Origin: Nanobdellota archaeon
GTDB lineage: Archaea; Nanobdellota; Nanobdellia; Pacearchaeales; GW2011-AR1
Length of the DNA stretch: 17,498 bases
Assembly (NCBI GenBank): GCA_030640565.1
Contig: DAOWJD010000014.1
Span: 1 to 17,498 of the forward strand
Direction of reading: 5' to 3'
Below the pieces are notes generated by a model, which was given only the letters and a program-made list of their open reading frames with translations, was not told where the DNA came from and searched no databases. The position numbers and the translations under genes are program-made. Below are positions 2-15,854 of the stretch, in pieces. Within the stretch, counting starts at the first letter, position 1; the number at the start of each line of letters is the position of its first letter.

Positions 2-571
2 ATTGGGGATGGTCATCTTAAAAAAAGCAAGTATCAAATCAACTTAGAATTATCTAATAAAAATTTAATTAAAAGTATAAAAAAAATGTGCTTATATCTG
101 TTTAATAGATCATTTAATATTTGTAAAGTAAAAGAAAGGGTAAATAGAAAACAATCATATTCTATGTGTATTGATAGTAAAGCTATTCATCAATTACTAA
201 ACCAAGTACATGAAATTCCTATTGGTAAAAAAAGTCATATTGTAAAAGTTCCAAAATATATTTTTATTTCAAACAAATCAATTAAAGCTGCTTTTCTAAT
301 TGGAATAATGGTTACAGAAGGTGGAAAAAGAAGAAGGGGTTTTGGATTATCAACAGCCAGCGAACAATTATGGAAAGATTTAGTAATACTTTTTAATGAA
401 GTCGGAATTAAGGTAAAAACAGATAAGTGGACACACAAAAAGTATAAAAAGGATTATTATGGTTTATCTTTTAAGAAAGAATGTCTTTCTATTTTGACGC
501 GGGAGTGCCGGAGTGGTCAAACGGGCCAGATTCTTTTTAGGTGTAATAACCTAAGAGAAGGCTATGCTTAG
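2..571 (+). CDS. LAGLIDADG-family homing endonuclease, two-motif type, 5' end cut by window edge
   Basis: The frame of the tracked ORF 86..571 is open from base 2 and translates as IGDGHLKKSKYQINLELSNKNLIKSIKK..., the tail of a first LAGLIDADG motif. A second motif-like helix, KAAFLIGIMVTEGG, lies about 100 aa downstream, as expected for a monomeric double-domain enzyme. The first in-frame stop is TAG at 569-571, so the last ~24 codons are tRNA DNA. Confidence 0.7.
   Translation: MGDGHLKKSKYQINLELSNKNLIKSIKKMCLYLFNRSFNICKVKERVNRKQSYSMCIDSKAIHQLLNQVHEIPIGKKSHIVKVPKYIFISNKSIKAAFLIGIMVTEGGKRRRGFGLSTASEQLWKDLVILFNEVGIKVKTDKWTHKKYKKDYYGLSFKKECLSILTRECRSGQTGQILFRCNNLREGYA
469..478 (+). promoter_or_regulatory. 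TATA-like box for tRNA-Leu
   Basis: TTTTAAGAAA is centred about 26 nt upstream of the tRNA 5' end at 499. The L44e and tRNA-Thr boxes in this window have the same spacing. It lies inside the 3' end of the LAGLIDADG ORF. Confidence 0.4.
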
Positions 572-3600: not shown

Positions 3601-6600
3601 AAACTCAAAACATTTGGAGTCCCTGAACGACATGCTGCTTCTGTAGTAATATCTGTCTGGCTTGCCTGAGATTCAACATATTTTTCTGCAACATAATTTA
3701 CCCCAAAAGAGGTTGTAACTTGTTTAAAACCGCACTCTTCCTGACCATTAACAATTATACACATCTGATGATAACCAGAAGGAGCTGTAAGATCTCTTGT
3801 TTCTGTGAAATAATCTCCTGCTTTAATAAATCCCTGAGCAACAATTCTTTTGAGAGATGCATCTTGATAGAAAGAACCTCCTGTTCCTCTAAGATAAACC
3901 TGGTAATATGCTGGGAAATCTTTTCCTGCATAAACATGATAAAATACTTTATATTGCGAGACAGGTGGATTTGTTGCTGTAGTGAAAGGAATTTCATCAA
4001 ATCTTCCATAAAACTGTACAGGAGAATCAGGAGTTATAAAGGTGTCAAATCCAGAAGGTCCTACAAAAGAAATGAAATTTTTACAGACAGATGTTCCTAC
4101 ATCTTCCACAGATCTTCCCTTAAAGGATTTGAAAGAGCTTGCAGCATATTGTTGTGTGAAAAAGTCGATAGAATCGGATGAACGTTGCCATGCATCCTTG
4201 ACTCCGAGATATTCTCCTCCTCCACGAGCCTTTTGCCCAAGCACTGTCCCAAGTCCCTCTGTAACAATTATTTTTGCCAATGGAATTCCTTGTCTCCAGA
4301 TAAGATCACACAGATACACACTATTGATTTCATCACAAACCCCAACTGTTTGTCCTGTATCCAAACTAGTTTGCAAACATTGTTGATAAGAATCAAAAAC
4401 AGTTAGCAAACTTTCAATTCCTGCATGGATTCCAGACAAACAAACAGGAACTTTTACTTCTGGGAAATTTGGCAAGCAAAGAAAAATACTTCCTGCTATC
4501 CCTGTCTGTACAACATCTTTAACAGGATATGCTCCCCCTAAATCACACCTTGAACTTGGGCATGCAACAGGATCACATACATTAAACATTAAATTACAAT
4601 CTGAAGGCGACATAAAATCCTGGCATTGTATATCTGGCCTTCCTGTTTCAGGATTTCCAACTTTAATTCTCTGTGAGGCCCCCCTTGGAGATATAATACT
4701 AACATGAGATACTCCTGAACGATGTTGTCTTTGCGCAGCTAAAATCGCTTTTTCAGCAGTATTTTTCAATGTTCTTAATTCTCCTTTGTCTAATCCTGAG
4801 AAATCAGGAGGTTGTCCTCCCCAAGTAAATCCTTCACAACTATCATCACCTATTCCTGAATTAAATTCTGCCTTATTATTTCCTCCAACATTGCAAATAT
4901 AAAAACTTCTTACAACTCCTGATGCATCATAAGCTCTTATTGCACCACCTATAGGCATAGTGGGTTTTATATAAGCATACCACCCATTTTGTAAATCAAA
5001 AGGAACAATTGCAGGAAACCCTGCATAAGCACCTGATTCATAATATCTTACTTCTGCATTTTCAAACGCATTTTCATAAGTTGTTCTATCAACTCTCTTG
5101 AAAAAAGCATTTTTTAAATCATCTGATGGACTTGAAACAAGACTACCATCTTTTTGATTATAAATTAATGGCTGGTCTTCTTGATCTCTTGCTACAGGAA
5201 ATTTATCTATTCCTCCTGTATCATCTAAAACAACTATATATGTCTTACCTGTATTAGATGGTAAAAGTACAATAGGTGTGTTTTCTTTAATAAGGGGTTT
5301 TCCATCATCATCTATTATGTTATTTATGCCTTCTAAAGATGTTTTACCTTGAATATTTTTATAGGTAAGTCCGCTATAATCCATTGCTTTTACTCTTTCA
5401 CCTTCTTGGAAAAATTCAATTTGAGAAGGAGCAACACCATACTTGTTTACCAAATTAATCCTTTCAGAAAAATATTCAGTGTTTGCTTTTATATCTGCTA
5501 GAATATCATATCTTTTCTTTTCTGAAAGCTCTTTAAGTTCTTCCCCAATATTTGGTGTTGATAAAACTTTTTGCAACCTGTCCAAATCTCTTGCTTGGCT
5601 TGGAGTTATTTTCCCTTCACTGAAACCCTCTTCAGAAAATGCACTTCCAACATTTGATGTTTTAGAAATCTCTATTTTTTCTCCAGCCTTATTTGGGTTA
5701 GTTATAGAACCATCTAAAGATTCTCTTATTCGAATTAATCTCTCAGCAGCATTTTCACTTGTAATTGCTTCTTGATTTTCTATTATTTCTGACACAATGT
5801 TAACATCTCTGTTAATTTTATCTGAATTGTTAAGAAGACAGGCATCAACATTTCTATAATCCCCTAATTTTTTCTTTTTTTCACAGAAATCAAACCAACC
5901 TCCATCACCCCTCATTACTTCCTGCCTTGCAAGTCCTCTCCCTCCGAGATTTGAAAAAAAGTTTTTAACAGTAAGACCAGTCCCAATACCAAGACATGCT
6001 GCTTTAAAACCACTGACAACAGTTCCAATCTTTTTGTTTATATTCTGCCATTTCTCTAAAGTTTTATTTAAAAATTCAATTCTTTCTCTTGTTTTTTCAG
6101 GGGATAATTGAAATAATCTTTTTTCAATCCCTATCTTAAATCCAAAAGTAGCATTTGTTCTTGCATAATTTATCTTAGGATTTATAGAAACTTTTGCTAC
6201 TTTTTTTAAATTAACTTCTTCAAGTGTAAACTGATACTTACTTCTAAAAGTCTCTGTAACCCCATGAGATAAAGTTTCAGTTGAAGGTTCTATAAAGAAA
6301 GCTATTACTTCTTCCACAGTCCTGCTCTTCTTAAGATTAACTCTTATCCTTGCTGTTGCACCTCTATCTAATTCACCTTTTTGCAAATCCAAGAGTTGAA
6401 TATATTCATCTGTATCACCTGTATCATCTGTAGTTTCACCCAAGTAAACAAGAGTATTTTGTCTTAACTTAACTGATTCTCTCTCTCCATTAGGATATCT
6501 GATATTTATAGTTGCGCTAAACTCATCAAGAGAAGGCTCTCTAACTGAACCAAAATTAATATTATAAATTCTTCCATTTATAACAACATTCTCAAAAGTT

Positions 6601-8378
6601 TTTTCAGAACTGGAAAATGCATAAATACTTTTACATACTTGTTCTTCTTCTAAATTAGGGTATGTTGCTTTAAATTCATTACAAAGTTCTAGGGCTGTTC
6701 TTTTCTGGTCAGCAGAAAATGCAAGATTTATTTTTCCAGATAAAGCTTCAGGACCTAAAGTTTTACCAGATTCCGAAGATTTTTCCTGAGAGAAATCTTC
6801 AAGTACATAATCATAATCTTCATTTCCACTAGAATAATAATTCTGGAAATTTGAGTCTTCTTTAGATGCAAGAGACAGTTCAGAATTAGTAGCATCTGCA
6901 AATCCTAAAATAGTTATACTTTTTCCAAAGGCATTTTCGGGTTTTCCAAAAGAAATAGTGTCAAATGATTGACCTGCAAGTCTTCTTATACCTTTTTCAA
7001 CAACGCCTACTCCAGCTTTTCCTGCTTTAATAGTGGCATCGACAAGATTTTTTGGGGTTTCAGAAGGTTGAAGATTTTTCATAAGTCTCCCAATAGACAT
7101 TATCCGATCTTCTTCAATACAATCTTCATCGCCAGGAGCAGACATAATAACAATAAATAAATCTCCTTCAGATACAATATTACTTTTTGTACCAGCATAT
7201 GCAAGATAAGCAGATTTATCGTTATTTATTTTATAAAGTTTTTGTCCAACCTTTACTGTTTTTTCTTCTCCTCCAACATCAATTTTTAATTTAGGCTTAT
7301 ACCCTATTTGGAAAGAGCTCCTCCTAGTATCTCCCTGACAACTAATAGTAACTTTCTCATTAATTCCGTGATTTTCTATATATTTTATTGTGCATTTATT
7401 ATCTATGAATTTTTCCCCTTCTTTTAATTCAAGAACATTACCATTTACTTTTAAATTAACCCTTGTACCAGGATTTTCTAGGTCTTTCAGTTGTACTTGC
7501 ATGGTTCCAAAACAATAATCAAAACCAGGTAGAGGGGTGTTTCTTGAAGATTCACCAACATTAAGATTAAGTGTAACAAGTTTTCTTTTTACATCTGACT
7601 TTCCAGAACCATAAGTTTCTCTATCAGAATAAACAGAGATAGTTGCTCCATTGTTATCAATCCCTTCTGCTCTCAGATAACCTCTTCCATCCCAAAAACC
7701 ATATCTTAAATAATTCTCTTCCCATTCATCTTCATTCATTTGAGGAAGATAAAAAACAGATCTTCCGACGCCAAAAGCATTTTTTATATCATATCTTATC
7801 TTAGCTGTTAAATTTCCTAAAATAAATTCAGGCATGATTGATTCATTTATTTGCTTTCTCAAAACTATGACAGCATATCCTATTTTATTTAAAACAGGCT
7901 GATTAAACTGGGTCCTGAATCTTCCCAAGGCAGCTCTTGCAGGCACATACGTCACTCCTACAACTTCTTTTGGTTTTGGTCCTGCAAAAGAGAAAGTAAT
8001 GGTACTGATTGTTTCAATTTCTATCATAGGATTAAGTTGTGTCGCAACTATAGGACAAAAAACAGGAACATTTTGATCCTCAAGGATGTCGCTTCTTACA
8101 ACAGACGGTTCACAACCTAAAGGATCAATTTGAAGAATAAAATCCTGTCCTGCTTCACACTTGTTTCTATCAAACAAAGGAAATCCAGGGTCTCCTGAAT
8201 AAGGAACATAAGTTGGAGAATAAGAAGTAAATGATCTTGAATAAGAATTAGAAGCACTGAAAATTTGCGCTGAAATAAATGAAATTAATAAAACTGTTAA
8301 AATCAAGGCACTAAAAACTAAGATAAATCTTTTCATATTCATACGCGTCATTATTTTATTTTTTGCTTTCATCTTCAC
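636..8378 (-). CDS. giant (about 2580 aa) secreted multidomain protein with two C-terminal lytic-transglycosylase-like domains
   Basis: Uninterrupted 7.7-kb ORF. The N-terminus MKRFILVFSALILTVLLISFISAQIFSAS has a Sec-type n-h-c pattern. A Pro/Thr linker KKPTPPPTSDKGAPTT (about nt 3069-3113) separates the large unrecognisable body from a C-terminal module carrying SLT-like motifs. The start is uncertain: GTG 8378 overlaps the upstream TGA stop (GTGA), ATG 8372 follows AGGTGA, and further in-frame ATGs occur at codons 10, 13 and 15. Confidence 0.9.
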   Translation of the reverse strand: MKMKAKNKIMTRMNMKRFILVFSALILTVLLISFISAQIFSASNSYSRSFTSYSPTYVPYSGDPGFPLFDRNKCEAGQDFILQIDPLGCEPSVVRSDILEDQNVPVFCPIVATQLNPMIEIETISTITFSFAGPKPKEVVGVTYVPARAALGRFRTQFNQPVLNKIGYAVIVLRKQINESIMPEFILGNLTAKIRYDIKNAFGVGRSVFYLPQMNEDEWEENYLRYGFWDGRGYLRAEGIDNNGATISVYSDRETYGSGKSDVKRKLVTLNLNVGESSRNTPLPGFDYCFGTMQVQLKDLENPGTRVNLKVNGNVLELKEGEKFIDNKCTIKYIENHGINEKVTISCQGDTRRSSFQIGYKPKLKIDVGGEEKTVKVGQKLYKINNDKSAYLAYAGTKSNIVSEGDLFIVIMSAPGDEDCIEEDRIMSIGRLMKNLQPSETPKNLVDATIKAGKAGVGVVEKGIRRLAGQSFDTISFGKPENAFGKSITILGFADATNSELSLASKEDSNFQNYYSSGNEDYDYVLEDFSQEKSSESGKTLGPEALSGKINLAFSADQKRTALELCNEFKATYPNLEEEQVCKSIYAFSSSEKTFENVVINGRIYNINFGSVREPSLDEFSATINIRYPNGERESVKLRQNTLVYLGETTDDTGDTDEYIQLLDLQKGELDRGATARIRVNLKKSRTVEEVIAFFIEPSTETLSHGVTETFRSKYQFTLEEVNLKKVAKVSINPKINYARTNATFGFKIGIEKRLFQLSPEKTRERIEFLNKTLEKWQNINKKIGTVVSGFKAACLGIGTGLTVKNFFSNLGGRGLARQEVMRGDGGWFDFCEKKKKLGDYRNVDACLLNNSDKINRDVNIVSEIIENQEAITSENAAERLIRIRESLDGSITNPNKAGEKIEISKTSNVGSAFSEEGFSEGKITPSQARDLDRLQKVLSTPNIGEELKELSEKKRYDILADIKANTEYFSERINLVNKYGVAPSQIEFFQEGERVKAMDYSGLTYKNIQGKTSLEGINNIIDDDGKPLIKENTPIVLLPSNTGKTYIVVLDDTGGIDKFPVARDQEDQPLIYNQKDGSLVSSPSDDLKNAFFKRVDRTTYENAFENAEVRYYESGAYAGFPAIVPFDLQNGWYAYIKPTMPIGGAIRAYDASGVVRSFYICNVGGNNKAEFNSGIGDDSCEGFTWGGQPPDFSGLDKGELRTLKNTAEKAILAAQRQHRSGVSHVSIISPRGASQRIKVGNPETGRPDIQCQDFMSPSDCNLMFNVCDPVACPSSRCDLGGAYPVKDVVQTGIAGSIFLCLPNFPEVKVPVCLSGIHAGIESLLTVFDSYQQCLQTSLDTGQTVGVCDEINSVYLCDLIWRQGIPLAKIIVTEGLGTVLGQKARGGGEYLGVKDAWQRSSDSIDFFTQQYAASSFKSFKGRSVEDVGTSVCKNFISFVGPSGFDTFITPDSPVQFYGRFDEIPFTTATNPPVSQYKVFYHVYAGKDFPAYYQVYLRGTGGSFYQDASLKRIVAQGFIKAGDYFTETRDLTAPSGYHQMCIIVNGQEECGFKQVTTSFGVNYVAEKYVESQASQTDITTEAACRSGTPNVLSLLSPNIQAGATEITNPALYNRGITRICATDNPGKATDAFIRTNKSRWQPVGYCGDTKMQCWLDTNSVKTTIKNTNIEDKILEEVTPGYIETLEGSNFLSDNEFKELLKDVEEEDNNFRKINIINADIDKVYHPTKKASLILLRANLYRLIVSDIYDKYIKSIQKKPTPPPTSDKGAPTTEEAARKLAEIDEETKRIGTGRGAYPIFEFKYGGVVLFKEKTSIYYSYSGNNWYWALDRKLTKSAWHTTDKGVSDIWAIDPHGRLRHPFDGLSEEMQKFTSKFVGESYSEGLKLLIDRTTQNKGKGLLSNVILSTKSVELSHKERFTVKQQEATDVYFEFDSSQKKWRWSPDKKNWAHVPAKVFIGKMKIWDEETWLQNEDLIESLDEEEPDYYNGAETIFSIDALAFQEGSQLGTEPGIGLEIKPGAETCFTLEECQKLLGGKIIEMAREKKLEHPEIDFNKVKEGTRAESFECLALMVARVESNIRHCKRSSDNLEQDPLYCEEDIKEVISGDEDKSLGIMQINKDVHGEKVLFEENVKYGINLLIDNYDSSERVYSCYRQIKWGVVRESDFVNKAYSGWKRALRSYNGWNTRCTDVDEEGDKKSVGNPRYVEDVLDETNRNAVMEMFPECAIETESPLERVFFPPEAELLRGPISQAISYRRGHINQEQGEEWANAILRVMIDWNIPLEFEHVSLIVSTIERESDFRADPLTPNIENIIQRKLQEIKEGGEWLGLKYRGANRFYEKYKDQIREIKTEKQLEQFLDSVGFVEKLFVKGFRPETVGSMQLNVEKARVLAQKYSHEDYSDKEMRSILYTQKGGVYYGVLYLNEIINVYTDYNTKPLDEDRIKLIAADYQSGLYSSRNAALQNQLNVLLRSNLALDGDIGDKTMEVVEEFLIRVGREDLLTRDNLKTFQASEKEDDLEDTIIYHTIKIEYEKRTGNSPEYAIIPENVIDVAKYGTEITSEGYVRGTYARYMAYCQLLGCFG
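1000..1595 (-). other. second, more divergent lytic-transglycosylase-like domain (domain of the giant protein)
   Basis: VSLIVSTIERESDFRADP (Glu-Ser at 1488-1493), then about 80 aa later ETVGSMQLNVEKA (G codon at 1248-1250), then GGVYYGVLYLNEII. The order of signature elements matches the first domain but the E-to-GxMQ spacer is longer. The call rests on motifs only. Confidence 0.4.
1824..2216 (-). other. SLT / GH23-like lytic transglycosylase domain (domain of the giant protein)
   Basis: ECLALMVARVESNIRHC (candidate catalytic Glu codon at 2157-2159, followed by Ser), then SLGIMQINKDVHG (GIMQ at 2037-2048), then YGINLL and AYSGWKRALRSYNGW. This is the E-S ... G-[LI]-M-Q-[IV] ... Y pattern of family 1 soluble lytic transglycosylases and goose-type lysozyme-fold proteins. 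Confidence 0.65.
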
Positions 8379-10204
8379 CTAAATCCTATTTCAAGCCCCT
8401 TTGTTTCAAATAATAAATGATTGATTTGTAATTGCTCAATTGTTTCAGGCACTGAAAAGCTTTTTGTATCTATCTCAATAGTACTAAAACCGATTAATTC
8501 AGATTCTAAAATATAATATTTTTGTTTTCCTCCTCCTACAAGAGCTTGAGATATTATCTGTTCAGGAACCTCAATTTCAAAACATTTTTCTTCCTTTAAT
8601 CCAAAAGCTCCAAGAACTCCTGATTTTGGAATTTCCATACACTGCTCTGTTGTTGTTTCTCCAATACTAATAGAAGAATCCCTATAAATATAAACATGTA
8701 CTTCATATTGTCCTTCTGCTAACTCTACAATTCTCTGCTCAGGATAAAGAACAGTTTTAGTAAAATCATCTGAAACAAAATAAATTATTGCATTTTCATT
8801 ATAGTTTACTCCGTCGATTTTTAGCTGAATATTTTTATTGTAAAGTTGGTCCATAATAACTGTCAGACTTCCTGGAGAAACTGTTGAAAGTAAATATTTA
8901 GAATCCTTGAAACCTTCTGCTTTAGCTATAACATATCCATTAACACACTGTGGGAAGTTCTCTGAGAGTCTTCCTGCTTCAGTTTCTCCTATATTACATT
9001 TATTTCCAAAACATTCATAAGAAATCTGTGCTTCTCTTACAGGATTTCCTTGCTTGCTCACCACATTAATTTCAATTTCAGAATTTTTATACTGGCAAAG
9101 CTCTGGAACAACACTTTCAATTGCAGTTACATTCAAGGATTGTCTTGGATTATTATTTTGAATAACAACTGCCATAGGAAACTGAAAAATTTCATCTCCA
9201 GAATAAACCTGTACAAGAACAGGATATTTCATACTATAAACAAAATGATAAGGAACATAACAAAATCCCATAATTCCTAAACCAGGTTGGTTTCCTACAG
9301 GATTTGCTATTAAAAGATTTTCTTCAGAAGGCATAACTTCAAAACTATGTGGCCAGTTTCTTGAATTCAAAAATCTAACCTCTTCTTTTACAGAAACATC
9401 AAGAATAAAATAACCATCAGCATCTACTTTTGTATTAAGTGCTAAAGTATTTACTTCAATAGCCTCCTGCAATTCATCAAAAATCTCGTCTGCATTCTTG
9501 ATGAAAGGGGAACACGTAATCTCAACTCCATCAACAGGAGCATAAAGTCTTAATATATCAATTGCATATTCTTCTAAAAATAAATTCTCTTGCTCTTCTT
9601 CATATATCTTTTTCGCAGAATCATAAAGATCTCCTAGTTCTGATTTTACAGTAATCTTATGGTCTTTTATTAAAATACCTTCATTTCCTATAGATATATT
9701 TAGGTTTGCATTGAGTTTAACTCTGACTTCATTATCTTTAATTGTTGCTTTTGCTTCTGATTCTAACAGTGAAATTTCAAACCCTTGGTCATAATAAGAA
9801 TTAAAATTACAGTTATTTATTCTGCCTTCAATAAAGGATTCAAGCTGTTGCTCCATTTCTGTTTCTGTCGGAATCTGTTCTTTTTGAATATTATTTCCAG
9901 AAACATAATACCAATAAGGGATAGGGTTTCCAAGAAAATTCAATTGGGAAGAGAAAGGCATGTATTCAGAACCTGGCTCAAATTCTGGTAAAGAAATATA
10001 TCCTCCTTGACTTTGTAAAACATTTATACCTGTTAAAGTATCTTCCTCTAAACAAGTTAAGAAAGTTGTGTAAATTGGTTCAATATTCTCAGGAATATCT
10101 GTCTTAGTCAAAGTAGTTCTCAGAATAAAATAAGCACCAATTCCTGCAATAATAAGTATTGCAATTATAATGAAAATTGTTACCTGTCCACTCTTATTTT
10201 TCAT
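8375..10204 (-). CDS. 609-aa secreted or membrane-anchored protein with pilin-like (class III-like) N-terminus and a beta-sandwich-like domain; function unknown
   Basis: N-terminus MKNKSG-QVTIFIIIAILIIAGIGAYFIL is a short basic segment, then Gly, then Gln+1 and a hydrophobic helix. This is a near match to the archaeal prepilin-peptidase pattern, except that position -2 is Ser. The segment IEINVVSKQGNPVREAQISYE...GYVIAKAEGFKDSKYLL resembles CarboxypepD_reg/PEGA-like beta-sandwiches. Its stop overlaps the giant gene start and its start overlaps the 45-aa ORF. Confidence 0.85.
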   Translation of the reverse strand: MKNKSGQVTIFIIIAILIIAGIGAYFILRTTLTKTDIPENIEPIYTTFLTCLEEDTLTGINVLQSQGGYISLPEFEPGSEYMPFSSQLNFLGNPIPYWYYVSGNNIQKEQIPTETEMEQQLESFIEGRINNCNFNSYYDQGFEISLLESEAKATIKDNEVRVKLNANLNISIGNEGILIKDHKITVKSELGDLYDSAKKIYEEEQENLFLEEYAIDILRLYAPVDGVEITCSPFIKNADEIFDELQEAIEVNTLALNTKVDADGYFILDVSVKEEVRFLNSRNWPHSFEVMPSEENLLIANPVGNQPGLGIMGFCYVPYHFVYSMKYPVLVQVYSGDEIFQFPMAVVIQNNNPRQSLNVTAIESVVPELCQYKNSEIEINVVSKQGNPVREAQISYECFGNKCNIGETEAGRLSENFPQCVNGYVIAKAEGFKDSKYLLSTVSPGSLTVIMDQLYNKNIQLKIDGVNYNENAIIYFVSDDFTKTVLYPEQRIVELAEGQYEVHVYIYRDSSISIGETTTEQCMEIPKSGVLGAFGLKEEKCFEIEVPEQIISQALVGGGKQKYYILESELIGFSTIEIDTKSFSVPETIEQLQINHLLFETKGLEIGFR

Positions 10205-10331
10205 GTTTCTTCGCCTCTGCTATTTTTTTTCTTATAAGTTCTAGTATTTCAGTATTAATATCTTTTGTTATACTCTCTTTAAATTTCTCCCAAAGCTTTT
10301 CATCCTCTACAAGAAGCAAATATTTTTTCAT
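10194..10331 (-). CDS. small 45-aa ORF, ribbon-helix-helix (CopG/Arc-like) pattern; not in the supplied ORF track
   Basis: Hand translation of the minus strand gives MKKYLLLVEDEKLWEKFKESITKDINTEILELIRKKIAEAKKHEK, stop TAA at 10194-10196. It reads as a short beta strand (YLLLVE) plus two helices, as in RHH DNA-binding proteins. It is preceded by GAGGGGTG (10335-10342 on plus as CACCCCTC), complementary to an archaeal 16S 3' end. It overlaps the ATG (10202-10204) of the 609-aa gene by 11 nt. Confidence 0.45.
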   Translation of the reverse strand: MKKYLLLVEDEKLWEKFKESITKDINTEILELIRKKIAEAKKHEK

Positions 10332-10366
10332 AAACACCCCTCAACTCTAATCTAAAAAAATTCTAA

Positions 10367-10462: not shown

Positions 10463-10660
10463 TTAAGAATACATTCTTCCTTTTTTGAAATAACTAAACC
10501 CTCCAATTATAAGAAGAACTCCTCCAATAAAAATTATCCATGATTCAATTAAAGTAAATGATTCAGGGATTTTTACAAATCCAAGAGGATAATTTAGAAA
10601 ATATAAGGCAAAGATAATATACAAAAACATAAACAAAACCCTGAATCTCTTTCTTCTCAT
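10463..10660 (-). CDS. 65-aa small membrane protein, two predicted TM helices
   Basis: MRRKRFRVLFMFLYIIFALYFLNYPLGF...WIIFIGGVLLIIGGFSYFKKGR has a basic N-terminus, two hydrophobic helices and a basic C-terminus. It has its own TATA-like box upstream. Confidence 0.55.
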   Translation of the reverse strand: MRRKRFRVLFMFLYIIFALYFLNYPLGFVKIPESFTLIESWIIFIGGVLLIIGGFSYFKKGRMYS

Positions 10661-10712: not shown

Positions 10713-11285
10713 TTATTTTTTACTTCCAATTGGAAAACGATAACCACATGTTAAAGCAATCATACCTTTTACATTTTCACTTCCTGGCCACACTATATAA
10801 CTGATTCCTCCATGAAGTTTATTAATTTTTACACCAGCACCAAACTTTAATCCAAGTGTTGTATTTGATACCTTCTCACGAATGCCAAATTGGGGAAGAT
10901 TTATTTCTGAATTTTCGATTAATACATTTGCACCAGCCATCAAATAAGGTTTTACTTTTGCTGTTTGTTTTGATAAATCAAACCTTACCTTAGCACTTAA
11001 CAAAGTACTCCTTGTTTTTATGCCTTTTTCTTTTGCTGATGACTTAAAAAAATCTAAACCAACTCCACCCCCAATTACTTTTCCACTAAGACTATAATCT
11101 ACACCAACCATGGTAGAAGGTTTATAAGCTTGTTTTTTTGCAGATATAGGGACTATTGTTCCGACCCTTAGTCCAATATAGTGCTCTAAAGATTGGGCAT
11201 TAAGTTCCAAAGGTATAAACAACATTAGACTCATTAAAGCTGTCCTCTTCGCTTTCCTTACTATTAATTCTAATCTTTGTTTCAT
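10713..11285 (-). CDS. 190-aa secreted protein with the pattern of an 8-stranded outer-membrane beta-barrel (OmpX/OmpW/OMP_b-brl-like)
   Basis: Signal-peptide-like N-terminus RKAKRTALMSLMLFIPLELNA-QS (AxA-type site). It is followed by eight amphipathic alternating segments: YIGLRVGTIV, TMVGVDYSLS, VIGGGVGLDFF, LLSAKVRFDL, KPYLMAGANVLI, TLGLKFGAGVKI, HGGISYIVW, MIALTCGYRF. Polar loops separate them. The last strand ends in an aromatic Phe near the C-terminus, followed by PIGSKK. Confidence 0.6.
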   Translation of the reverse strand: MKQRLELIVRKAKRTALMSLMLFIPLELNAQSLEHYIGLRVGTIVPISAKKQAYKPSTMVGVDYSLSGKVIGGGVGLDFFKSSAKEKGIKTRSTLLSAKVRFDLSKQTAKVKPYLMAGANVLIENSEINLPQFGIREKVSNTTLGLKFGAGVKINKLHGGISYIVWPGSENVKGMIALTCGYRFPIGSKK

Positions 11286-11324: not shown

Positions 11325-13796
11325 CTAAACATAATAACATGCTCCATAATTACATATTTCTATCTTACATCTTCCTGAGATGCATCCATGTTCACAATCT
11401 TCTATTTTCTTTTTTGAAGTAGATGATATACAATCTGAATCAGAACAATCTCTTGTTATATAGTCTCTATAAACATTATCATTATGACAGTAATTATCTC
11501 CAGTATATCCACTTACTCCACATTCTTGAACTTTTTCCTCTTCTATATATTCATTATCAAAACAAACCCCTATAGAACACCCTTTATTATGACAGATTTT
11601 ATCATGATAAACATCTCCATCTTCACAATAATCATCTTGCCAATCCTCACAATAATCAGAACCACAATCTTCTTTTAATTCAAGAGCAGTTGAATTTGAG
11701 CAATATGAATCACCTGTTCCAGCATTATTGCATGTATAAGTTATATAATTTTGCCAGACATTATCTTCCTGACATGATGAATCTCCCACATAATCATTAA
11801 CACCACATTCAGAATCATTATAACATTCTACATATACACACTCCCCGTCTAAACAGCCTTCAGCTCCGCATTCTTGAACTTTTTGCGTTGTTGTATTTTC
11901 AAAACAAGCTCCATCTGAACAACCCCTATCTGTAAAATTCTGATAAACATCATTATCATAACAATAATTATCACTATGGGAATCTTCTCTGCAATCCTCT
12001 TTCATAATTATATTGCTTTCATCGCTACAAAAAGATTGTTCTGTTCCAGGATTATTACAAGTATATTCTCTATACCACTGGTAAACATCATTATTAGAAC
12101 ACCAAGGACTCCCACTGAGATCATTTACTCCACAATCTATATTAGAAGAACAAATTATATTTGGATTTGATTTACAATTCCCATTTATGCATCCATACTG
12201 GCATGTTTCAACAAATCTTTCATTTTCATATGAATTTGAATAACAATGAACACCAAATGACGTTGTGGTTGTGCATCCTTTGTTATAACAAAGTTGGGTT
12301 TCATATGCGTCGTCCCCGTGGCAAGTATCTCTATACCAATCAGAACAACCATCATTTCCACACTCCTGTTTTTTTTCTTCTCTATTATCACATGCATCAT
12401 ACCAATAAATATCATTATAAGCACACTTTGTATATGAATGACTTGTACAAGTTATACAGGTTCCAGAACCATCACATTCATTATTTGTTCCGCAAGAAGT
12501 GTGTTTAGGTTTATTTGTATAATCAATACAAGCCATAGCAAAACTACAACTACCTGCTCCATTACAATATTTACCTACATCATGATAATTCCTACAAGTT
12601 GTATCTAAATAATCACAGTCTTTAGTTCCACAAACTGTTGAAGTTCCATAATAATTACAAGTGGAATCTCCTGCAGTACAATATTCACAAATTCCACAAG
12701 TATCATAATTAAAAGTACCCCAAGTATAACTAGCACTTAAACCAGTGCAATAATAATCTCTCTTAATAACAGAACTTGTTCCTGTTGGAGAATTTATTCC
12801 AGAGCAATAATAAGAATCAATATAACCTGTTGGTTGACTTAGATAAGGTTTAAATTCATATGGCCTGCTCGACAAATCACAACAAACTCCTGAAAGACAA
12901 TCGCACTCTCCATTTACATAACCATAAACACTATAACTAGAAGTAGACATCTCCCCAACTTTATTGCCAAAATCATAAATTTTAACATAAAATTCTCCAC
13001 TTGCTCCAGGGTCAGGAATAATCGCATCACTTAAATCAACACTCAAGAAATCTCCTTCAAAATAAAAAGATTCGCAATCATAGCTTTTACTTGAACCACA
13101 ATCCCAATCCACAAGATCATCAGGAAAAATCCCGTCATATTCCATCAAATCTATACACCAGGTAACATAAGCATAGCCATTCCTTGCACAATCATATAAA
13201 TCTCCATAATCTGGATAAAATCTTGCTCTTCCTTTAACAATAATATCTATTTCCTCATTCTCACAAACATTTGAAGGCAAAGAAGGGTCAAATTTAATAT
13301 AGTACGTAGATGAACTTGTAGATAAAACATATTCTTTTCCATCCCTCATAATATAACTTGTACCATTTCTATTAAGAATTTCACTAGATAAATTCATAAA
13401 ATCATCTATTTCAGTCTCATTAACCCCTTCTGTATAATTAGTTTCATTTTGATTGTCCACAATTTCATTTAAGACAGGAACATCAACAACATTTCCAGTT
13501 ATTACAGGAGCAGAAGAAGCACTGCCTCCACTTCCTCCTCCAGAAGATTTCTTAGAAGAGGATTTTTTATCAATCTCATCAAAAGTAAACTTAATTTCAT
13601 TACCTAAAGAATTTACATCTTGAGAAGTATCTTGTTCAGTATCAAGTAAAATAAGTTCTGTCCCTATATTGTTTTCATTATCTGATTTCCTAATTTCATT
13701 TGTAATTATAACTCCTGAAGAAACCACTAAGACCGAGATTACTAAAAAGATTAATGTAACACTTGCTTTTTTAGAAGTTAAAAAAAAACTTCCCAT
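11325..13796 (-). CDS. 823-aa secreted or anchored, extremely cysteine-rich repeat protein (adhesin-like); function unknown
   Basis: N-terminal anchor or signal SKKASVTLIFLVISVLVVSSGVII, then a Ser/Gly linker KKSSSKKSSGGGSGGSASSAP, a Cys-poor domain of about 200 aa, then aa 298-823 with 63 Cys by my hand count (about 12 percent). Confidence 0.85.
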   Translation of the reverse strand: MGSFFLTSKKASVTLIFLVISVLVVSSGVIITNEIRKSDNENNIGTELILLDTEQDTSQDVNSLGNEIKFTFDEIDKKSSSKKSSGGGSGGSASSAPVITGNVVDVPVLNEIVDNQNETNYTEGVNETEIDDFMNLSSEILNRNGTSYIMRDGKEYVLSTSSSTYYIKFDPSLPSNVCENEEIDIIVKGRARFYPDYGDLYDCARNGYAYVTWCIDLMEYDGIFPDDLVDWDCGSSKSYDCESFYFEGDFLSVDLSDAIIPDPGASGEFYVKIYDFGNKVGEMSTSSYSVYGYVNGECDCLSGVCCDLSSRPYEFKPYLSQPTGYIDSYYCSGINSPTGTSSVIKRDYYCTGLSASYTWGTFNYDTCGICEYCTAGDSTCNYYGTSTVCGTKDCDYLDTTCRNYHDVGKYCNGAGSCSFAMACIDYTNKPKHTSCGTNNECDGSGTCITCTSHSYTKCAYNDIYWYDACDNREEKKQECGNDGCSDWYRDTCHGDDAYETQLCYNKGCTTTTSFGVHCYSNSYENERFVETCQYGCINGNCKSNPNIICSSNIDCGVNDLSGSPWCSNNDVYQWYREYTCNNPGTEQSFCSDESNIIMKEDCREDSHSDNYCYDNDVYQNFTDRGCSDGACFENTTTQKVQECGAEGCLDGECVYVECYNDSECGVNDYVGDSSCQEDNVWQNYITYTCNNAGTGDSYCSNSTALELKEDCGSDYCEDWQDDYCEDGDVYHDKICHNKGCSIGVCFDNEYIEEEKVQECGVSGYTGDNYCHNDNVYRDYITRDCSDSDCISSTSKKKIEDCEHGCISGRCKIEICNYGACYYV
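11367..12425 (-). repeat. divergent tandem Cys-rich modules within the 823-aa protein (protein-level repeats)
   Basis: Recurrent unit C-x2-[ND]-[DN]-[VI]-[YW] ... C ... [KQ]-[EV]-[EQ]-[ED]-C-G ... G-C-x-[DNS]-G-x-C. Examples are CGVNDLSGSPWCSNNDVYQWYREYTCNNPGTEQSFCSDESNIIMKEDC and CGVNDYVGDSSCQEDNVWQNYITYTCNNAGTGDSYCSNSTALELKEDC, plus repeated KVQECG..GC..G.C closures. DNA identity between units is low, for example atcattaacaccacattc versus atcatttactccacaatc. Confidence 0.7.
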
Positions 13797-13890: not shown

Positions 13891-13962
13891 GGCCTCGTAG
13901 TCCAGTGGTTAAGACGCATCGCTGACTTCGATGTAACCCCAGTTCGATTCTGGGCGGGGCCA
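13891..13962 (+). tRNA. tRNA-Val (anticodon GAC), no intron, no encoded CCA
   Basis: Hand fold: acceptor GGCCTCG pairs with CGGGGCC (one G-U pair), discriminator A. D arm is GTC/GAC with an AGTGGTTA loop. Anticodon arm is CATCG-CTGACTT-CGATG. Variable region is TAAC. T arm is CCCAG-TTCGATT-CTGGG. Confidence 0.85.
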
Positions 13963-14024: not shown

Positions 14025-14336
14025 ATGAAAATTCCGAAGACAACAAACAGATTTTGTCCTTATTGCAACAAAAAAACAAAGCAAAAAATAAAGATAGTAG
14101 GAACAGGATTCCAAAGAGGGACTTTAACAAGAGGTTCTAAATCAAGAGCTAAATTAAGGGGATTGGGGAGGGGAATTGGAAATAAAGGTATTTGGGGTTC
14201 AAAACCAGCCCAATCAAAACACAAAAGAAAATCTAAAACAACTAAAAAAACAAATTTCCTTTATGTCTGTGATGTTTGTGGGAAAGCAAAATACCAGAAA
14301 AAAGGAAAAAGAGCAGGGAAAGTAATCCAAGAATAA
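14025..14336 (+). CDS. rpl44e: 50S ribosomal protein L44e (eL42)
   Basis: MKIPKTTNRFCPYCNKKTKQK...FLYVCDVCGKAKYQKKGKRAGK is a very basic protein with a CxxC...CxxC zinc ribbon and the characteristic KxPK..R.YCp.C..H start of archaeal L44e. Confidence 0.9.
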   Translation: MKIPKTTNRFCPYCNKKTKQKIKIVGTGFQRGTLTRGSKSRAKLRGLGRGIGNKGIWGSKPAQSKHKRKSKTTKKTNFLYVCDVCGKAKYQKKGKRAGKVIQE

Positions 14337-15302: not shown

Positions 15303-15854
15303 ATGGCACAAGCAAAAAGAAAACAAAAATTTTTCGATGTGAATATGCCTATAATAAAAAAGGAGACCCAATTATATGGTTATGACCTTAAAGATTTTGA
15401 TGGAAAAACAATAACTTATGACTTAACAAGGTTACTGAGGGGGAAAGCCATACTCTTAAAATTAATAGTTAAGATTGAAGGGGATAAGGCAATTGCAGAA
15501 CCTAGAGAATTAAAAGTTATGCCTTATTTCATCAGAAGAATGATGAGAAAAGGGACAAATTATGTTGAAGGTTCTTTTTCTGCTGAATGCAAAGAAGGTA
15601 TACTAAAAATAAAGCCTTTCTTAATAACAAGGAAAAAAGTTTCAAGAGCTGTCAGAAAAGCGCTTCGGGAAAAAGCACAAGAAGAGCTAACAAGTTATGT
15701 AAAAACAAAAGATACAGAAACACTTTTTGATGAAATTATGAAAAACCAACTTCAAAAATTCTTAAGTTTAAAACTCAAAAAAATATATCCTCTTTCTCTT
15801 TGTGAAATTCGTTTCTTTGCAATCAAAGAGAAGAAAAAGAACAAAACAGAATAA
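15303..15854 (+). CDS. rps3ae: 30S ribosomal protein S3Ae (eS1)
   Basis: KRKQKFFDVNMP...LLRGKAILLKL...YFIRRMMRKGTNYVE...KKIYPLSLCEIRFFAI follows the conserved archaeal S3Ae pattern (K..W..v..P, L.GR, dy.Rs.vrr, kkiyPl..veir). Confidence 0.85.
   Translation: MAQAKRKQKFFDVNMPIIKKETQLYGYDLKDFDGKTITYDLTRLLRGKAILLKLIVKIEGDKAIAEPRELKVMPYFIRRMMRKGTNYVEGSFSAECKEGILKIKPFLITRKKVSRAVRKALREKAQEELTSYVKTKDTETLFDEIMKNQLQKFLSLKLKKIYPLSLCEIRFFAIKEKKKNKTE

What the first reader, a model, noticed from the sequence alone, without database searches (positions are those of the whole stretch)
10713..11285. Bacterial-style 8-stranded outer-membrane beta-barrel candidate in an archaeal context
Seen: the protein has a signal peptide with an LNA-QS site. 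It is followed by eight amphipathic, Gly- and aromatic-rich alternating segments of 9-13 aa separated by polar loops. The last, MIALTCGYRF, ends in Phe as in the OMP C-terminal signature, although six more residues (PIGSKK) follow. Established: this layout typifies OmpX/OmpW/OMP_b-brl (PF13505-like) proteins of diderm bacteria, which need BAM for insertion. Archaea generally lack an outer membrane and BAM. Inference: the gene was either horizontally acquired from a Gram-negative bacterium or encodes a secreted barrel that inserts into a foreign membrane. Its position inside the cluster with the murein-lytic giant protein makes the second idea worth testing.
Basis: partly seen in the sequence, partly recalled or inferred. 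Interest (0 to 1): 0.65.

Follow-up and report, generated by a model that had tools for sequence, protein, structure and literature searches.

The report
Bacterial-type membrane barrel in DPANN archaea
A small Woesearchaeota (DPANN) archaeon encodes a genuine bacterial-style eight-stranded outer-membrane barrel, always next to a large cysteine-rich surface protein; this is unexpected because archaea are thought to lack such barrels and the machinery that inserts them.

Summary
Window 10713-11285 (minus strand) encodes a 190-aa protein. It has a signal peptide, eight amphipathic strands and a GYRF motif followed by six extra residues. It scores above Pfam's cut-off for OMP_b-brl (PF13505). AlphaFold2 gives an 8-stranded barrel whose best PDB matches are Ail, NspA, OprF-N, OmpX and OmpW. 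None of 942 outward-facing residues across 22 homologues is charged, so the exterior is lipid-exposed.

It is not contamination. At least nine independent assemblies, including MAGs named Candidatus Woesearchaeota, show the same gene between archaeal core genes (S3Ae, L44e, TFIIB, GINS).

The functional link is to the gene directly upstream, not to the murein-lytic giant protein. That upstream gene encodes a large membrane-anchored, Cys-rich or subtilase protein. It ends in a conserved tail (…VCNFGxCYEYC / …CNYGxCYYV) in all 11 loci checked. The tm65-RHH-p609-giant module occurs in over 2000 protein clusters from related DPANN archaea, and two long contigs carry it without the pair.

GC-rich distant relatives end in a terminal Phe. 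They are fused or adjacent to tagged surface proteins, one with a confirmed MYXO-CTERM tag.

Best reading: an anciently acquired, BAM-independent barrel that anchors or receives its Cys-tailed partner. Which membrane holds it is unresolved.

The parts
10713..11285 (-). Gene for the 190-aa OMP_b-brl-type 8-stranded beta-barrel (includes stop codon 10713-10715)
   Evidence: ORF. PF13505 above gathering score. AF2 gives 8 strands. Foldseek top hits are Ail, NspA, OmpX and OmpW. Exterior is hydrophobic with no charged residues.
11193..11285 (-). Signal peptide (aa 1-31). It has a conserved n-region MKQ+LE.I, an h-region ALMSLMLFIPL and a c-region LNA|QS. About half of the homologues carry a lipobox L[TA]IGC here instead.
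   Evidence: Alignment A1: M1 K2 Q3 L5 E6 I8 are at least 90% conserved, which supports the upstream ATG rather than the 173-aa call. AF2 gives a helix at 2-22. The cleavage site is read from the sequence; no predictor was run.
10728..10766 (-). Last strand (aa 174-186, GMIALTCGYRFPI) carrying the beta-signal-like motif. Four more residues (GSKK) follow it.
   Evidence: G174, T179, G181 and Y182 are invariant; F184 is present in 20 of 22 sequences, the other two having a gap. GC-rich relatives end exactly at this Phe.
11325..13796 (-). Upstream partner gene: an 823-aa, N-terminally membrane-anchored, Cys-rich repeat surface protein. It sits 39 nt upstream of the barrel gene.
   Evidence: Homologues or analogues lie directly upstream of the barrel in all loci where the upstream region is present. 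It has no Pfam or NCBIfam family.
11328..11375 (-). Conserved extreme C-terminal Cys/aromatic tail of the partner protein (…GRCKIEICNYGACYYV*)
   Evidence: The motif C[NWT][YFW][GA]xC[YE] is found only at the very C-terminus of the gene(s) directly upstream of the barrel. It is also present in L021 and L018. It is absent from the barrel-less loci L019 and L020. It matches no known sorting-tag model.
10463..10660 (-). 65-aa two-TM small membrane protein (tm65), part of the ancestral module
   Evidence: Conserved in L001, L007, L004 and L015, and also in barrel-less L019 and L020.
10194..10337 (-). 45-47-aa very conserved small protein. The strand-helix-helix, ribbon-helix-helix-like look is read from the sequence only. 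It overlaps the p609 start.
   Evidence: 91-96% identity in L001 and L007, 78-79% in L015 and L019. No significant family hit.
8375..10204 (-). p609: a 609-aa surface protein of unknown function with a class-III (pilin-like) signal-like N-terminus, KSGQ|VTIFIIIAIL
   Evidence: Over 2170 homologous clusters at about 60% identity, named Nanoarchaeota, Pacearchaeota or archaeon, with no Pfam family. AF2 is only partly confident. The C-terminal half is built of beta-sandwiches resembling Gram-positive pilin/adhesin stalk domains, at low TM-score.
636..8378 (-). Giant 2580-aa secreted protein with C-terminal lytic-transglycosylase-like modules
   Evidence: DUF1615 at E=2.9e-39, residues 2262-2570. 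SLT is only weak here (E=0.036), but PF01464 SLT is recorded for the 2242-aa homologue in L020. It is the family described as fam00969 in PMC8204110.
13891..13962 (+). tRNA-Val(GAC) bordering the Cys-rich/barrel cassette (context)
14025..14336 (+). Ribosomal protein L44e-like gene (marker of archaeal context)
   Evidence: Weak PF00935 match. The same gene flanks the cluster in L007, L004, L015, L019 and L020.
15303..15854 (+). Ribosomal protein S3Ae gene (marker of archaeal context)
   Evidence: PF01015, 55.6 bits, above cut-off 29.3.

Best explanation
The gene encodes a real, lipid-embedded, closed 8-stranded beta-barrel. It belongs to the bacterial outer-membrane-protein superfamily, as a distinct PF13505 subfamily, and has become a native gene of a Woesearchaeota (DPANN) lineage.

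Shown:
- the fold and the lipid-facing exterior;
- the archaeal genomic setting;
- purifying selection across 22 or more homologues;
- strict pairing with the gene directly upstream.

Inferred mechanism:
1. The protein is exported by Sec. Its signal peptide is cut at LNA|QS, or in about half of the family the protein is lipidated at a lipobox Cys 4-5 residues before strand 1.
2. It folds into a bilayer without BAM, as small OMPs do spontaneously in vitro.
3. There it serves as the membrane-embedded docking or anchor partner for the conserved Cys/aromatic C-terminal tail of the co-encoded large surface protein. That partner is itself held in the archaeal membrane by an N-terminal hydrophobic helix.

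The pair is a two-gene cassette. In this subclade it was inserted beside the much older tm65-RHH-p609-giant lytic-transglycosylase surface module.

Which membrane holds the barrel is not settled. My ranking is:
- the archaeon's own cytoplasmic membrane, entered from outside, about 0.4; the lipid anchor lying only a few residues from strand 1 favours this;
- a partner or host membrane at a contact site, about 0.3;
- an unrecognised second membrane of the archaeon, about 0.15.
For: Fold and family:
- PF13505 above the gathering score, and hit by all 22 homologues.
- AF2 gives 8 strands.
- Foldseek top hits are Ail, NspA, OprF-N, OmpX, OmpW and PagL.

Lipid exposure:
- 0/942 charged residues and 82% hydrophobic at outward positions, against 21% charged at inward positions.

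Native archaeal gene:
- Identical gene order between S3Ae/L44e and TFIIB in independent assemblies.
- Records titled Candidatus Woesearchaeota.
- Host-like GC content.

Pairing with the upstream gene:
- A Cys-tailed protein lies 8-39 nt upstream, or overlaps, in every locus, including those where the remaining synteny is lost or different (L011, L012, L013, L018, L021).
- The tail motif is absent from the barrel-less loci.

Cassette nature:
- p609/giant loci L019 and L020 have tm65, p609 and the giant protein (RHH was detected in L019 only) but no pair.

Rosetta-stone support:
- GC-rich relatives have the barrel fused behind passenger domains (Calx-beta, BACON_2 on P0062 and similar Ig-like segments on the others read by eye, caspase-like read by eye) or next to tagged surface proteins.
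- One tag is MYXO-CTERM at 28.2 bits, above the cut-off of 20.

Relaxed BAM constraint:
- Many members of the Woesearchaeota-type clade, including the window protein, carry xFG[SK]KK after the Phe, whereas the complete GC-rich relatives end at the Phe.

Background from papers:
- Lipoproteins and the AliA lipidation enzyme family are common in DPANN (PMC12462473).
- Small OMPs fold spontaneously into bilayers in vitro (review PMC7383365, found; otherwise my own knowledge).
Against: - There is no experimental or structural evidence that the tail touches the barrel. The link is genomic association only.
- No complex prediction was possible.
- No transmembrane beta-barrel is known in any cytoplasmic membrane, so the favoured location would itself be unprecedented.
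- The absence of BamA/Omp85 in these genomes is assumed from general knowledge and was not tested here.
- The most conserved residues lie in the loops on the side opposite the termini (K50, Q52, Y54, S169, E170, N171, E124, D137, K138, N141). If the barrel entered its own membrane from outside, these loops would face the cytoplasm. That is awkward for a surface-docking role.
- The window protein has lost several otherwise conserved interior charges (E74G, R160G, R97S, E147K).
Confidence: 0.5

Rival explanations
1. One reading: the barrel is delivered into a foreign membrane, the outer membrane of a Gram-negative host. There it works with the giant murein-lytic protein as part of an attachment or attack apparatus.
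For: - The hydrophobic exterior means it must sit in lipid.
- Woesearchaeota and Pacearchaeota giant lytic-transglycosylase proteins are proposed to bind bacterial walls (PMC8204110; PMC9723730).
- The partner protein is anchored in the archaeal membrane by its N-terminus. A barrel in a second membrane would therefore make a sensible tether.
- The conserved trans-side loops would then face the host periplasm.
Against: - The barrel is not linked to the giant protein. The giant/p609 module is found in over 2000 clusters and, on two long contigs, without the barrel.
- The pair occurs elsewhere without p609.
- In lipobox-bearing homologues the lipid anchor is only 4-5 residues from strand 1. Anchor and barrel must then share one membrane.
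- Insertion through an LPS leaflet from outside has no precedent that I know of.
Confidence: 0.2
2. This Woesearchaeota clade is diderm, and the protein is a conventional outer-membrane protein of the archaeon's own second membrane. It tethers that membrane to the cytoplasmic membrane through the Cys-rich partner.
For: - Two membranes have been reported for some archaea, including the DPANN ARMAN group (PMC4243693).
- A possible OMP relative has been noted in the diderm Altiarchaeales (PMC12228718).
- The classical topology (short turns on the side of the termini, long conserved loops opposite) fits an outer-membrane orientation.
Against: - There is only one barrel gene per locus, and the family is tiny: 57 clusters among 1.84 billion representatives.
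- Related genomes with the same neighbourhood lack it. It is therefore accessory, not an envelope core component.
- No ultrastructure for these organisms turned up in the papers I searched.
- BamA was not searched for.
Confidence: 0.12
3. The pair is an archaeal analogue of the myxobacterial TraA/TraB outer-membrane-exchange fusogen. A Cys-rich stalk protein docks by its C-terminal end on a beta-barrel, and together they bring two membranes into contact for adhesion, fusion and lipid or protein uptake.
For: TraA/TraB as described in the papers:
- TraA has a signal peptide, a Cys-rich repeat stalk and a C-terminal Cys-containing sorting tag.
- TraB has an outer-membrane beta-barrel.
- The genes form an overlapping bicistronic operon and the proteins a 1:1 complex. 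AlphaFold places the end of TraA on top of the TraB barrel (PMC3325183; PMC12045341).

The situation here:
- A Cys-rich protein with a conserved C-terminal Cys tail sits directly upstream of the barrel.
- GC-rich relatives of this barrel sit behind MYXO-CTERM-type tags.
Against: - No sequence homology was detected. The Cys-rich protein hits no NCBIfam or Pfam repeat family.
- The barrel has no OmpA domain.
- The archaeal partner has an N-terminal anchor and no C-terminal transmembrane tag.
- The resemblance is architectural only.
Confidence: 0.12
4. Artefact: bacterial contamination, a chimeric contig, or a decaying recent transfer with no function.
For: - PF13505 is overwhelmingly bacterial (general knowledge).
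- Some homologues of the neighbouring p609 are labelled 'Bacillota' or 'Patescibacteria' in NCBI. Mis-binning therefore does occur in this data type.
Against: - The same arrangement between archaeal-specific genes appears on at least nine independent assemblies.
- GC content is host-like.
- 29 columns are invariant over 22 sequences at 46-57% identity.
- The N-terminus is conserved and the ORFs are intact.
Confidence: 0.02
5. It is a soluble or lipid-carrier beta-barrel (lipocalin- or avidin-like), not a membrane protein.
For: - Eight-stranded soluble barrels exist.
- DPANN archaea need to scavenge lipids (general knowledge).
Against: - The polarity is the inverse of a soluble barrel. The exterior has no charges and is 82% hydrophobic, while the interior is 21% charged.
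- All of the top 17 PDB matches are small outer-membrane barrels, and every match listed is an outer-membrane beta-barrel protein.
Confidence: 0.04

Closest known systems
Pfam PF13505 OMP_b-brl (outer membrane protein beta-barrel domain; small 8-stranded OMPs of diderm bacteria)
   Same: - The HMM score is above the curated cut-off.
- It has a signal peptide, eight amphipathic strands, a lipid-facing aromatic/hydrophobic exterior and a polar interior.
- The last strand follows the hydrophobic-x-hydrophobic-x-Tyr-x-Phe pattern.
   Different: - It is encoded in archaeal (Woesearchaeota) genomes.
- The Phe is not C-terminal: 6 extra residues end in KK.
- The loops are the most conserved part rather than the most variable.
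- It is strictly paired with a Cys-tailed partner gene.
- It forms a small separate subfamily with the motifs PxxAKEQxYxPS and GSENVKG.
OmpX / Ail / NspA / OprF N-domain / OmpW (solved 8-stranded OM barrels)
   Same: They are the best structural matches (Foldseek E 6e-7 to 1e-5, TM up to 0.70 on the target). Like OmpX, strands 3-6 extend beyond the membrane belt as a sheet.
   Different: - Sequence identity is 13-21%.
- No hit to any other Pfam family at E<=1, so not to those families' own models.
- There is no sign of the PagL/PagP-type catalytic residues (by inspection).
- The membrane environment is different or unknown.
Myxococcus xanthus TraA/TraB outer-membrane-exchange pair
   Same: - It is a two-gene unit: a Cys-rich stalk surface protein with a Cys-containing C-terminal element, plus a beta-barrel membrane partner.
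- One GC-rich relative of this barrel follows a confirmed MYXO-CTERM tag, and three others follow similar GC-TM-basic tags that did not match the model.
   Different: - No detectable homology of the Cys-rich proteins.
- No OmpA domain on the barrel.
- The archaeal partner is N-terminally anchored and its tail is a soluble Cys knot, not a transmembrane tag.
- The barrel-to-barrel comparison was not done.
C-terminal sorting-tag systems with a dedicated neighbouring partner (MYXO-CTERM/myxosortase, PGF-CTERM/archaeosortase, T9SS CTD/PorV)
   Same: A short conserved motif sits at the extreme C-terminus of otherwise diverse surface proteins (Cys-repeat, subtilase, Fn3). It co-occurs with one specific partner gene.
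   Different: - The tail has no transmembrane helix or basic cluster, and it matches no NCBIfam tag model.
- The partner is an 8-stranded barrel with no protease signature.

Membership tests
Pfam PF13505 OMP_b-brl / MBB clan small outer-membrane barrels | Profile HMM score at or above the curated gathering threshold | tested here: met
   31.4 bits against 28.7, E=2.6e-7. All 22 homologues match at E<=0.01, best 1.3e-9.
Pfam PF13505 OMP_b-brl / MBB clan small outer-membrane barrels | Closed antiparallel 8-stranded beta-barrel fold | tested here: met
   The AF2 model has eight strands (pLDDT 75.7). The top Foldseek PDB hits are all 8-stranded OM barrels.
Pfam PF13505 OMP_b-brl / MBB clan small outer-membrane barrels | Lipid-facing hydrophobic exterior with aromatic residues, and a polar interior | tested here: met
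   Outward positions: 0/942 charged, 82% hydrophobic, 21% aromatic. Inward positions: 21% charged.
Pfam PF13505 OMP_b-brl / MBB clan small outer-membrane barrels | N-terminal Sec signal peptide (or lipoprotein signal) | tested here: inconclusive
   Basic n-region, hydrophobic h-region, and LNA|QS or a lipobox L[TA]IGC in the alignment. AF2 gives a helix at 2-22. No signal-peptide predictor was run.
Pfam PF13505 OMP_b-brl / MBB clan small outer-membrane barrels | C-terminal beta-signal with an aromatic residue (Phe) as the very last residue | tested here: not met
   The motif I-x-L-x-C-x-Y-x-F is present, but six more residues follow (PIGSKK; consensus xFGSKK). GC-rich relatives and some deeper DPANN-like relatives do end at the Phe.
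Pfam PF13505 OMP_b-brl / MBB clan small outer-membrane barrels | Resides in the outer membrane of a diderm cell and is assembled by BAM (BamA/Omp85) | not testable with these tools
   The host is an archaeon. Whole genomes could not be scanned for Omp85. Archaea are generally held to lack it (my own knowledge).
OmpX/Ail (PF06316), OmpW (PF03922), OmpA N-domain (PF01389) | Match to the family's own profile HMM | tested here: not met
   Only PF13505 was reported at E<=1 in Pfam. The resemblance is structural only.
TraB-type barrel partner of a Cys-rich tagged surface receptor (Myxococcus TraAB) | Adjacent or overlapping gene pair: a Cys-rich surface protein with a C-terminal Cys-containing element, plus a beta-barrel protein | tested here: met
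   Gaps of 8-39 nt, or overlap, in 11 loci, and the tail motif is exclusive to the upstream gene.
TraB-type barrel partner of a Cys-rich tagged surface receptor (Myxococcus TraAB) | Sequence homology to TraA repeats (TIGR04201) or MYXO-CTERM, and to TraB with its OmpA domain | tested here: not met
   The Cys-rich protein and its tail hit no NCBIfam model. The barrel protein has no OmpA domain. The TraB barrel itself was not available for comparison.
Soluble 8-stranded barrels (lipocalin/avidin-like) | Hydrophobic core inside, polar surface outside | tested here: not met
   The polarity is inverted, and no such structures appear among the PDB matches.

The most novel reading that the evidence does not exclude
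This would be the first transmembrane beta-barrel family that is native to, and functional in, Archaea, assembled without BAM. Together with its Cys-tailed partner it would form a TraA/TraB-like inter-membrane tether or fusogen.

In this reading the partner is rooted in the archaeal membrane by its N-terminus. Its Cys-rich stalk reaches out, and its C-terminal tail docks on the barrel, which sits in or enters the apposed (host) membrane. This would give a lipid-auxotrophic DPANN cell adhesion, membrane contact and possibly lipid uptake.
Probability: 0.15. Interest if true: 0.9.

Novelty: new variant of a known kind. Interest (0 to 1): 0.68.

Why it matters
Transmembrane beta-barrels of the OMP type are regarded as a hallmark of diderm bacteria and their organelle descendants, and as dependent on Omp85/BAM. 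A vertically maintained, clearly lipid-exposed OMP barrel in Woesearchaeota forces one of three unexpected conclusions:
- BAM-independent barrel assembly in an archaeal ether-lipid membrane;
- an unrecognised second membrane in a DPANN clade;
- delivery of a barrel into another organism's membrane.

It also defines a simple two-gene unit, a Cys-tailed surface protein plus a barrel. This unit can be tested directly by in vitro folding, complex prediction and heterologous display. It may bear on how DPANN cells attach to partners and obtain membrane material. No paper describing it turned up in four full-text searches.

Tried and rejected
Searches that added nothing about the barrel:
- NCBIfam and PHROGs gave no informative hit for the barrel or its neighbours.
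- A PDB sequence search returned only a de novo designed transmembrane barrel at E=0.39.

Attempts to name the GC-rich relatives failed:
- The word-indexed search with alignment A2 returned only 4 proteins.
- Cluster look-ups gave no organism names except Candidatus Pacearchaeota for P0060 and P0080.
- The contexts of L016, L017 and L022 do not decide between bacterium and archaeon.
- Only the MYXO-CTERM hit on P0076 points to Myxococcota. The 'bacterial sister group' is therefore likely but not proven.
- P0052 and P0072 in the profile search are repeat-protein false positives.

The wider locus:
- The AF2 model of p609 was poor exactly in its most conserved region, 204-367 (pLDDT 60.7).
- Its Foldseek hits have low TM-scores and are generic beta-sandwich/pilin-stalk matches. 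The function of the p609-giant module remains unknown.
- SLT in the giant protein of the window is sub-threshold. A PDB sequence search of its C-terminal 588 residues found nothing.

Ideas considered and rejected:
- An enzymatic barrel (PagL/PagP-like) was rejected. The family-wide invariants (E74, D158, R160, Y114, S169, N171) look like an interior polar network plus a loop cap, there is no His-Ser-Glu triad, and the window protein itself lacks E74 and R160.
- An uncleaved signal anchor was rejected, because the hydrophobic stretch is only about 12 residues long.

Analyses I could not run:
- A whole-genome search for BamA/Omp85.
- Multimer prediction.
- Measurement of barrel geometry. No coordinates were exposed.
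Full report
**1. What is at the coordinates**

The ORF 10713..11285 lies on the minus strand and encodes 190 aa. The plus-strand translation is full of stops.

The N-terminus reads MKQRLELIVRKAKRTALMSLMLFIPLELNA|QSLEHY. The C-terminus reads …GMIALTCGYRFPIGSKK.

A public gene call starts 17 residues later (P0001, 173 aa). However, M1, K2, Q3, L5, E6 and I8 are at least 90% conserved among 22 homologues, so the longer ORF is the real one.

**2. Is it an OMP-type barrel?**

Yes. Four lines of evidence agree.
- Pfam PF13505 OMP_b-brl scores 31.4 bits against a gathering cut-off of 28.7, E=2.6e-7. No other family appears at E<=1. All 22 homologues hit the same model.
- AlphaFold2 on the family alignment gives pLDDT 75.7 and pTM 0.63. 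It shows an N-terminal helix (signal peptide) and exactly eight strands. Turns are short on the side of the termini, and strands 3-6 are longer on the other side.
- Foldseek against PDB returns only outer-membrane barrels. The top hits are Ail, NspA (TM 0.70), the OprF N-domain, OmpX, OmpW and PagL.
- I assigned outward and inward positions from the strand dyad repeat and counted over the alignment.
  - Outward: 0 of 942 residues charged, 82% hydrophobic, 21% aromatic.
  - Inward: 21% charged.
  - This is the signature of a lipid-exposed barrel and the inverse of a soluble one.

The last strand has the classical pattern of hydrophobic residues at alternate positions, Tyr at -3 and then Phe. 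Six more residues follow it (consensus xFGSKK).

**3. Is the context archaeal and real?**

Yes.
- The window carries S3Ae (above cut-off), an L44e-like gene, NDK and two tRNAs.
- The same barrel gene lies in the same order between S3Ae/L44e/GINS51 and TFIIB on independent assemblies from NCBI, ENA, JGI and Logan.
- Three GTDB representative genomes carrying it are titled Candidatus Woesearchaeota archaeon.
- GC content is 28-30%, as in the flanks.
- Contamination, chimerism and recent transfer can be dismissed.

**4. How big is the family, and who are the relatives?**

An exhaustive profile search of 1.84 billion representatives finds only 57 clusters at E<=1e-3, of which 25 are at E<=1e-10. 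Two of the 57 are repeat-protein false positives. By composition the clusters split in two.

The strong hits:
- They are AT-rich.
- Many share the MKQKLES… N-terminus.
- Where context is available they are archaeal. L015 has GINS, S3Ae and an AEP primase. L021 has form III RuBisCO and TYW3. L018 has Hef-like helicase and nuclease genes. P0060 is named Candidatus Pacearchaeota.

The weak hits:
- They are GC-rich, and all the complete ones end exactly at a terminal Phe.
- Most carry a lipobox plus a Pro-rich linker, or the barrel is fused behind passenger domains. These include Calx-beta (recorded by Pfam for P0067), BACON_2 (recorded for P0062), similar Ig-like segments and a caspase-like domain that I read by eye.
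- One of them carries a MYXO-CTERM tag above the NCBIfam cut-off immediately before the barrel's own lipoprotein signal.

This pattern fits an old bacterium-to-DPANN transfer, followed by loss of the 'Phe must be last' constraint in the Woesearchaeota clade. The bacterial identity of most GC-rich relatives could not be verified by name.

**5. What is it linked to?**

Local BLAST over all fetched loci shows six conserved genes:
- tm65;
- a Cys-rich large protein;
- the barrel;
- a 45-aa protein (91-96% identical);
- p609 (58-78% identical);
- the giant protein.

p609 alone has over 2170 homologous clusters at about 60% identity, in Nanoarchaeota, Pacearchaeota and Woesearchaeota.

Two long contigs show the syntenic locus S3Ae-L44e … tm65-p609-giant-TFIIB (with the 45-aa gene also detected in L019), and neither contains the Cys-rich gene or the barrel. 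These are L019, from a 401-kb contig, and L020, from a 175-kb Pacearchaeota contig.

The giant protein is the known Woesearchaeota/Pacearchaeota lytic-transglycosylase family (PMC8204110; PMC9723730). Here it shows DUF1615 at E=2.9e-39 and a sub-threshold SLT. SLT is recorded for the L020 homologue.

Conversely, the gene immediately upstream of the barrel always encodes a protein with two features. This holds with an 8-39 nt gap, or overlapping as in L018. The features are an N-terminal hydrophobic anchor and a conserved extreme C-terminal tail. The tail reads …GC..G[RK]C…(VCxxV)CN[YF]GxCY[YE](V | YCxW[QRE]).
- The bodies of these proteins differ: Cys-repeat modules, subtilase (GTSMAxPHV) or Fn3. 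The tail is constant.
- This holds in loci where everything else differs. In L011 the downstream synteny is lost. L013 has a 1622-aa protein and no p609. L018 has a 266-aa Fn3 protein. L021 has a 1583-aa protein.
- L015 has two tailed genes in tandem before the barrel.
- The tail is absent from the barrel-less loci and matches no known sorting-tag model.

The functional unit is therefore the pair [Cys-tailed surface protein + barrel]. In this subclade the pair was inserted next to tRNA-Val/L44e, beside the older module.

**6. Mechanism**

*Shown:* a lipid-exposed 8-stranded barrel; an export signal, with a lipobox 4-5 residues before strand 1 in about half of the family; and strict pairing with the tailed partner.

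*Inferred:* Sec export, BAM-independent folding into a bilayer, and service as the membrane-embedded docking or anchor partner of the tail.

Small OMPs fold spontaneously in vitro (review PMC7383365). Lipoproteins and AliA are common in DPANN (PMC12462473).

The fusions and MYXO-CTERM-adjacent arrangement in the GC-rich relatives give Rosetta-stone support for a role as partner of a tagged surface protein.

The closest architectural analogue is myxobacterial TraA/TraB.
- TraA has a Cys-rich stalk and a C-terminal Cys tag. TraB has an outer-membrane barrel.
- The operon is bicistronic and the complex 1:1. The end of TraA is predicted to sit on the TraB barrel.
- The pair acts as an outer-membrane fusogen (PMC3325183; PMC12045341).
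- No sequence homology was detectable here, so this is 'works like', not 'is a'.

*Which membrane?* This is unresolved.
- The short distance between lipid anchor and strand 1 argues that anchor and barrel share one membrane. Most simply this is the archaeon's own, entered from outside.
- Against that, the highly conserved loops would then face the cytoplasm, and the partner is already anchored at its N-terminus. Both points make a second membrane (host, or the archaeon's own outer membrane) functionally more attractive.
- Two membranes have been reported for some archaea, including ARMAN (PMC4243693).

**7. Verdict**

A bacterial-type barrel of ancient foreign origin is supported. The link to the murein-lytic giant is not supported. 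Insertion into a foreign membrane remains open.
- In kind, it is a new variant of a known family in an unexpected domain of life, with a previously undescribed partner tail.
- Four full-text literature searches found no description of it.

Noticed in passing
window 8375-10204 (-): p609 is an extraordinarily conserved hypothetical protein. It has over 2170 clusters at about 60% identity over 600 aa, in Nanoarchaeota, Pacearchaeota and Woesearchaeota, with no Pfam family. It always precedes the giant lytic-transglycosylase protein. Its N-terminus, K(S/R)GQ|(V/I)TIFIIIAI, looks like a class III (type IV pilin-like) signal. AF2 fails on its most conserved segment (204-367). The C-terminal half is built of CnaB/pilin-stalk-like beta-sandwiches.
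   Followed up: partly
window 10194-10337 (-): A 45-47-aa ORF (MKKYLLLVEDEKLWEKFKESITKDINTEILELIRKKIAEAKKHEK) overlaps the p609 start. It is 91-96% identical in other Woesearchaeota loci and 78% in L019. It looks like a strand-helix-helix (ribbon-helix-helix-like) regulator, but no family hit was obtained.
   Followed up: partly
window 11235-11285 (-) and alignment A1 columns 1-20: The n-region of the barrel's signal peptide (MKQKLESIxKKGKM) is nearly invariant across the family. Recognisable variants (MNEKLESIL, MNKRLEYTL) occur in distant members. This is unusually strong conservation for a signal-peptide n-region. It may reflect a dedicated targeting factor or an mRNA-level constraint.
   Followed up: no
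window 10713-11285 (-), residues 63, 74, 97, 99, 147, 160: The window's barrel is the outlier of its family. The otherwise near-invariant interior charges E74, R160, R97 and E147 are replaced (G, G, S, K), while D63 and K99 are gained. The joint loss of E74 and R160, on opposite strands 3 and 7, looks like a lost cross-lumen salt bridge.
   Followed up: partly
L012 7906-9990, L015 7726-9927: Some Cys-tailed partner proteins carry a subtilisin-type protease signature (GTSMA[AT]PHV) in place of Cys-repeat modules. In L018 the partner is a small Fn3 protein. The tail thus behaves like a portable C-terminal tag on diverse surface proteins.
   Followed up: partly
L016 1686-1865; L017 1-255; P0067 and P0076 internal: In GC-rich relatives the protein before the barrel ends in a 'GC + TM helix + RRR/RKKR' tag. 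The P0076 tag matches MYXO-CTERM (TIGR03901) above its cut-off. In P0076 and P0067 this tag and the barrel's own lipoprotein signal lie in one ORF, which is either a true fusion or merged gene calls.
   Followed up: partly
window 86-571 (+): A free-standing LAGLIDADG homing-endonuclease-like ORF (PF14528 E=1.1e-6; PF05204 E=6.3e-5) sits at the window start, just beyond the end of the giant gene. No rRNA or intron was detected by Rfam in the window.
   Followed up: no
window 13891-13962 (+): tRNA-Val(GAC) sits directly beside the start of the Cys-rich gene, at the border where the Cys-rich/barrel cassette is present relative to barrel-less relatives. It may mark an insertion hotspot. No integrase was seen.
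   Followed up: no
one search hits P0102, P0196: Two close p609 homologues are labelled 'Bacillota bacterium' and 'Patescibacteria group bacterium' in NCBI, although the family is otherwise DPANN. These are probably mis-binned MAG contigs.
   Followed up: no
window 636-2100 (-), giant protein residues ~2040-2570: The giant protein seems to carry two tandem lysozyme-like modules. The first is a weak SLT match with E-S, GIMQ and YNGW motifs. The second is a strong DUF1615 domain that itself shows ERES…GSMQL…YQSG motifs reminiscent of lytic transglycosylases.
   Followed up: partly
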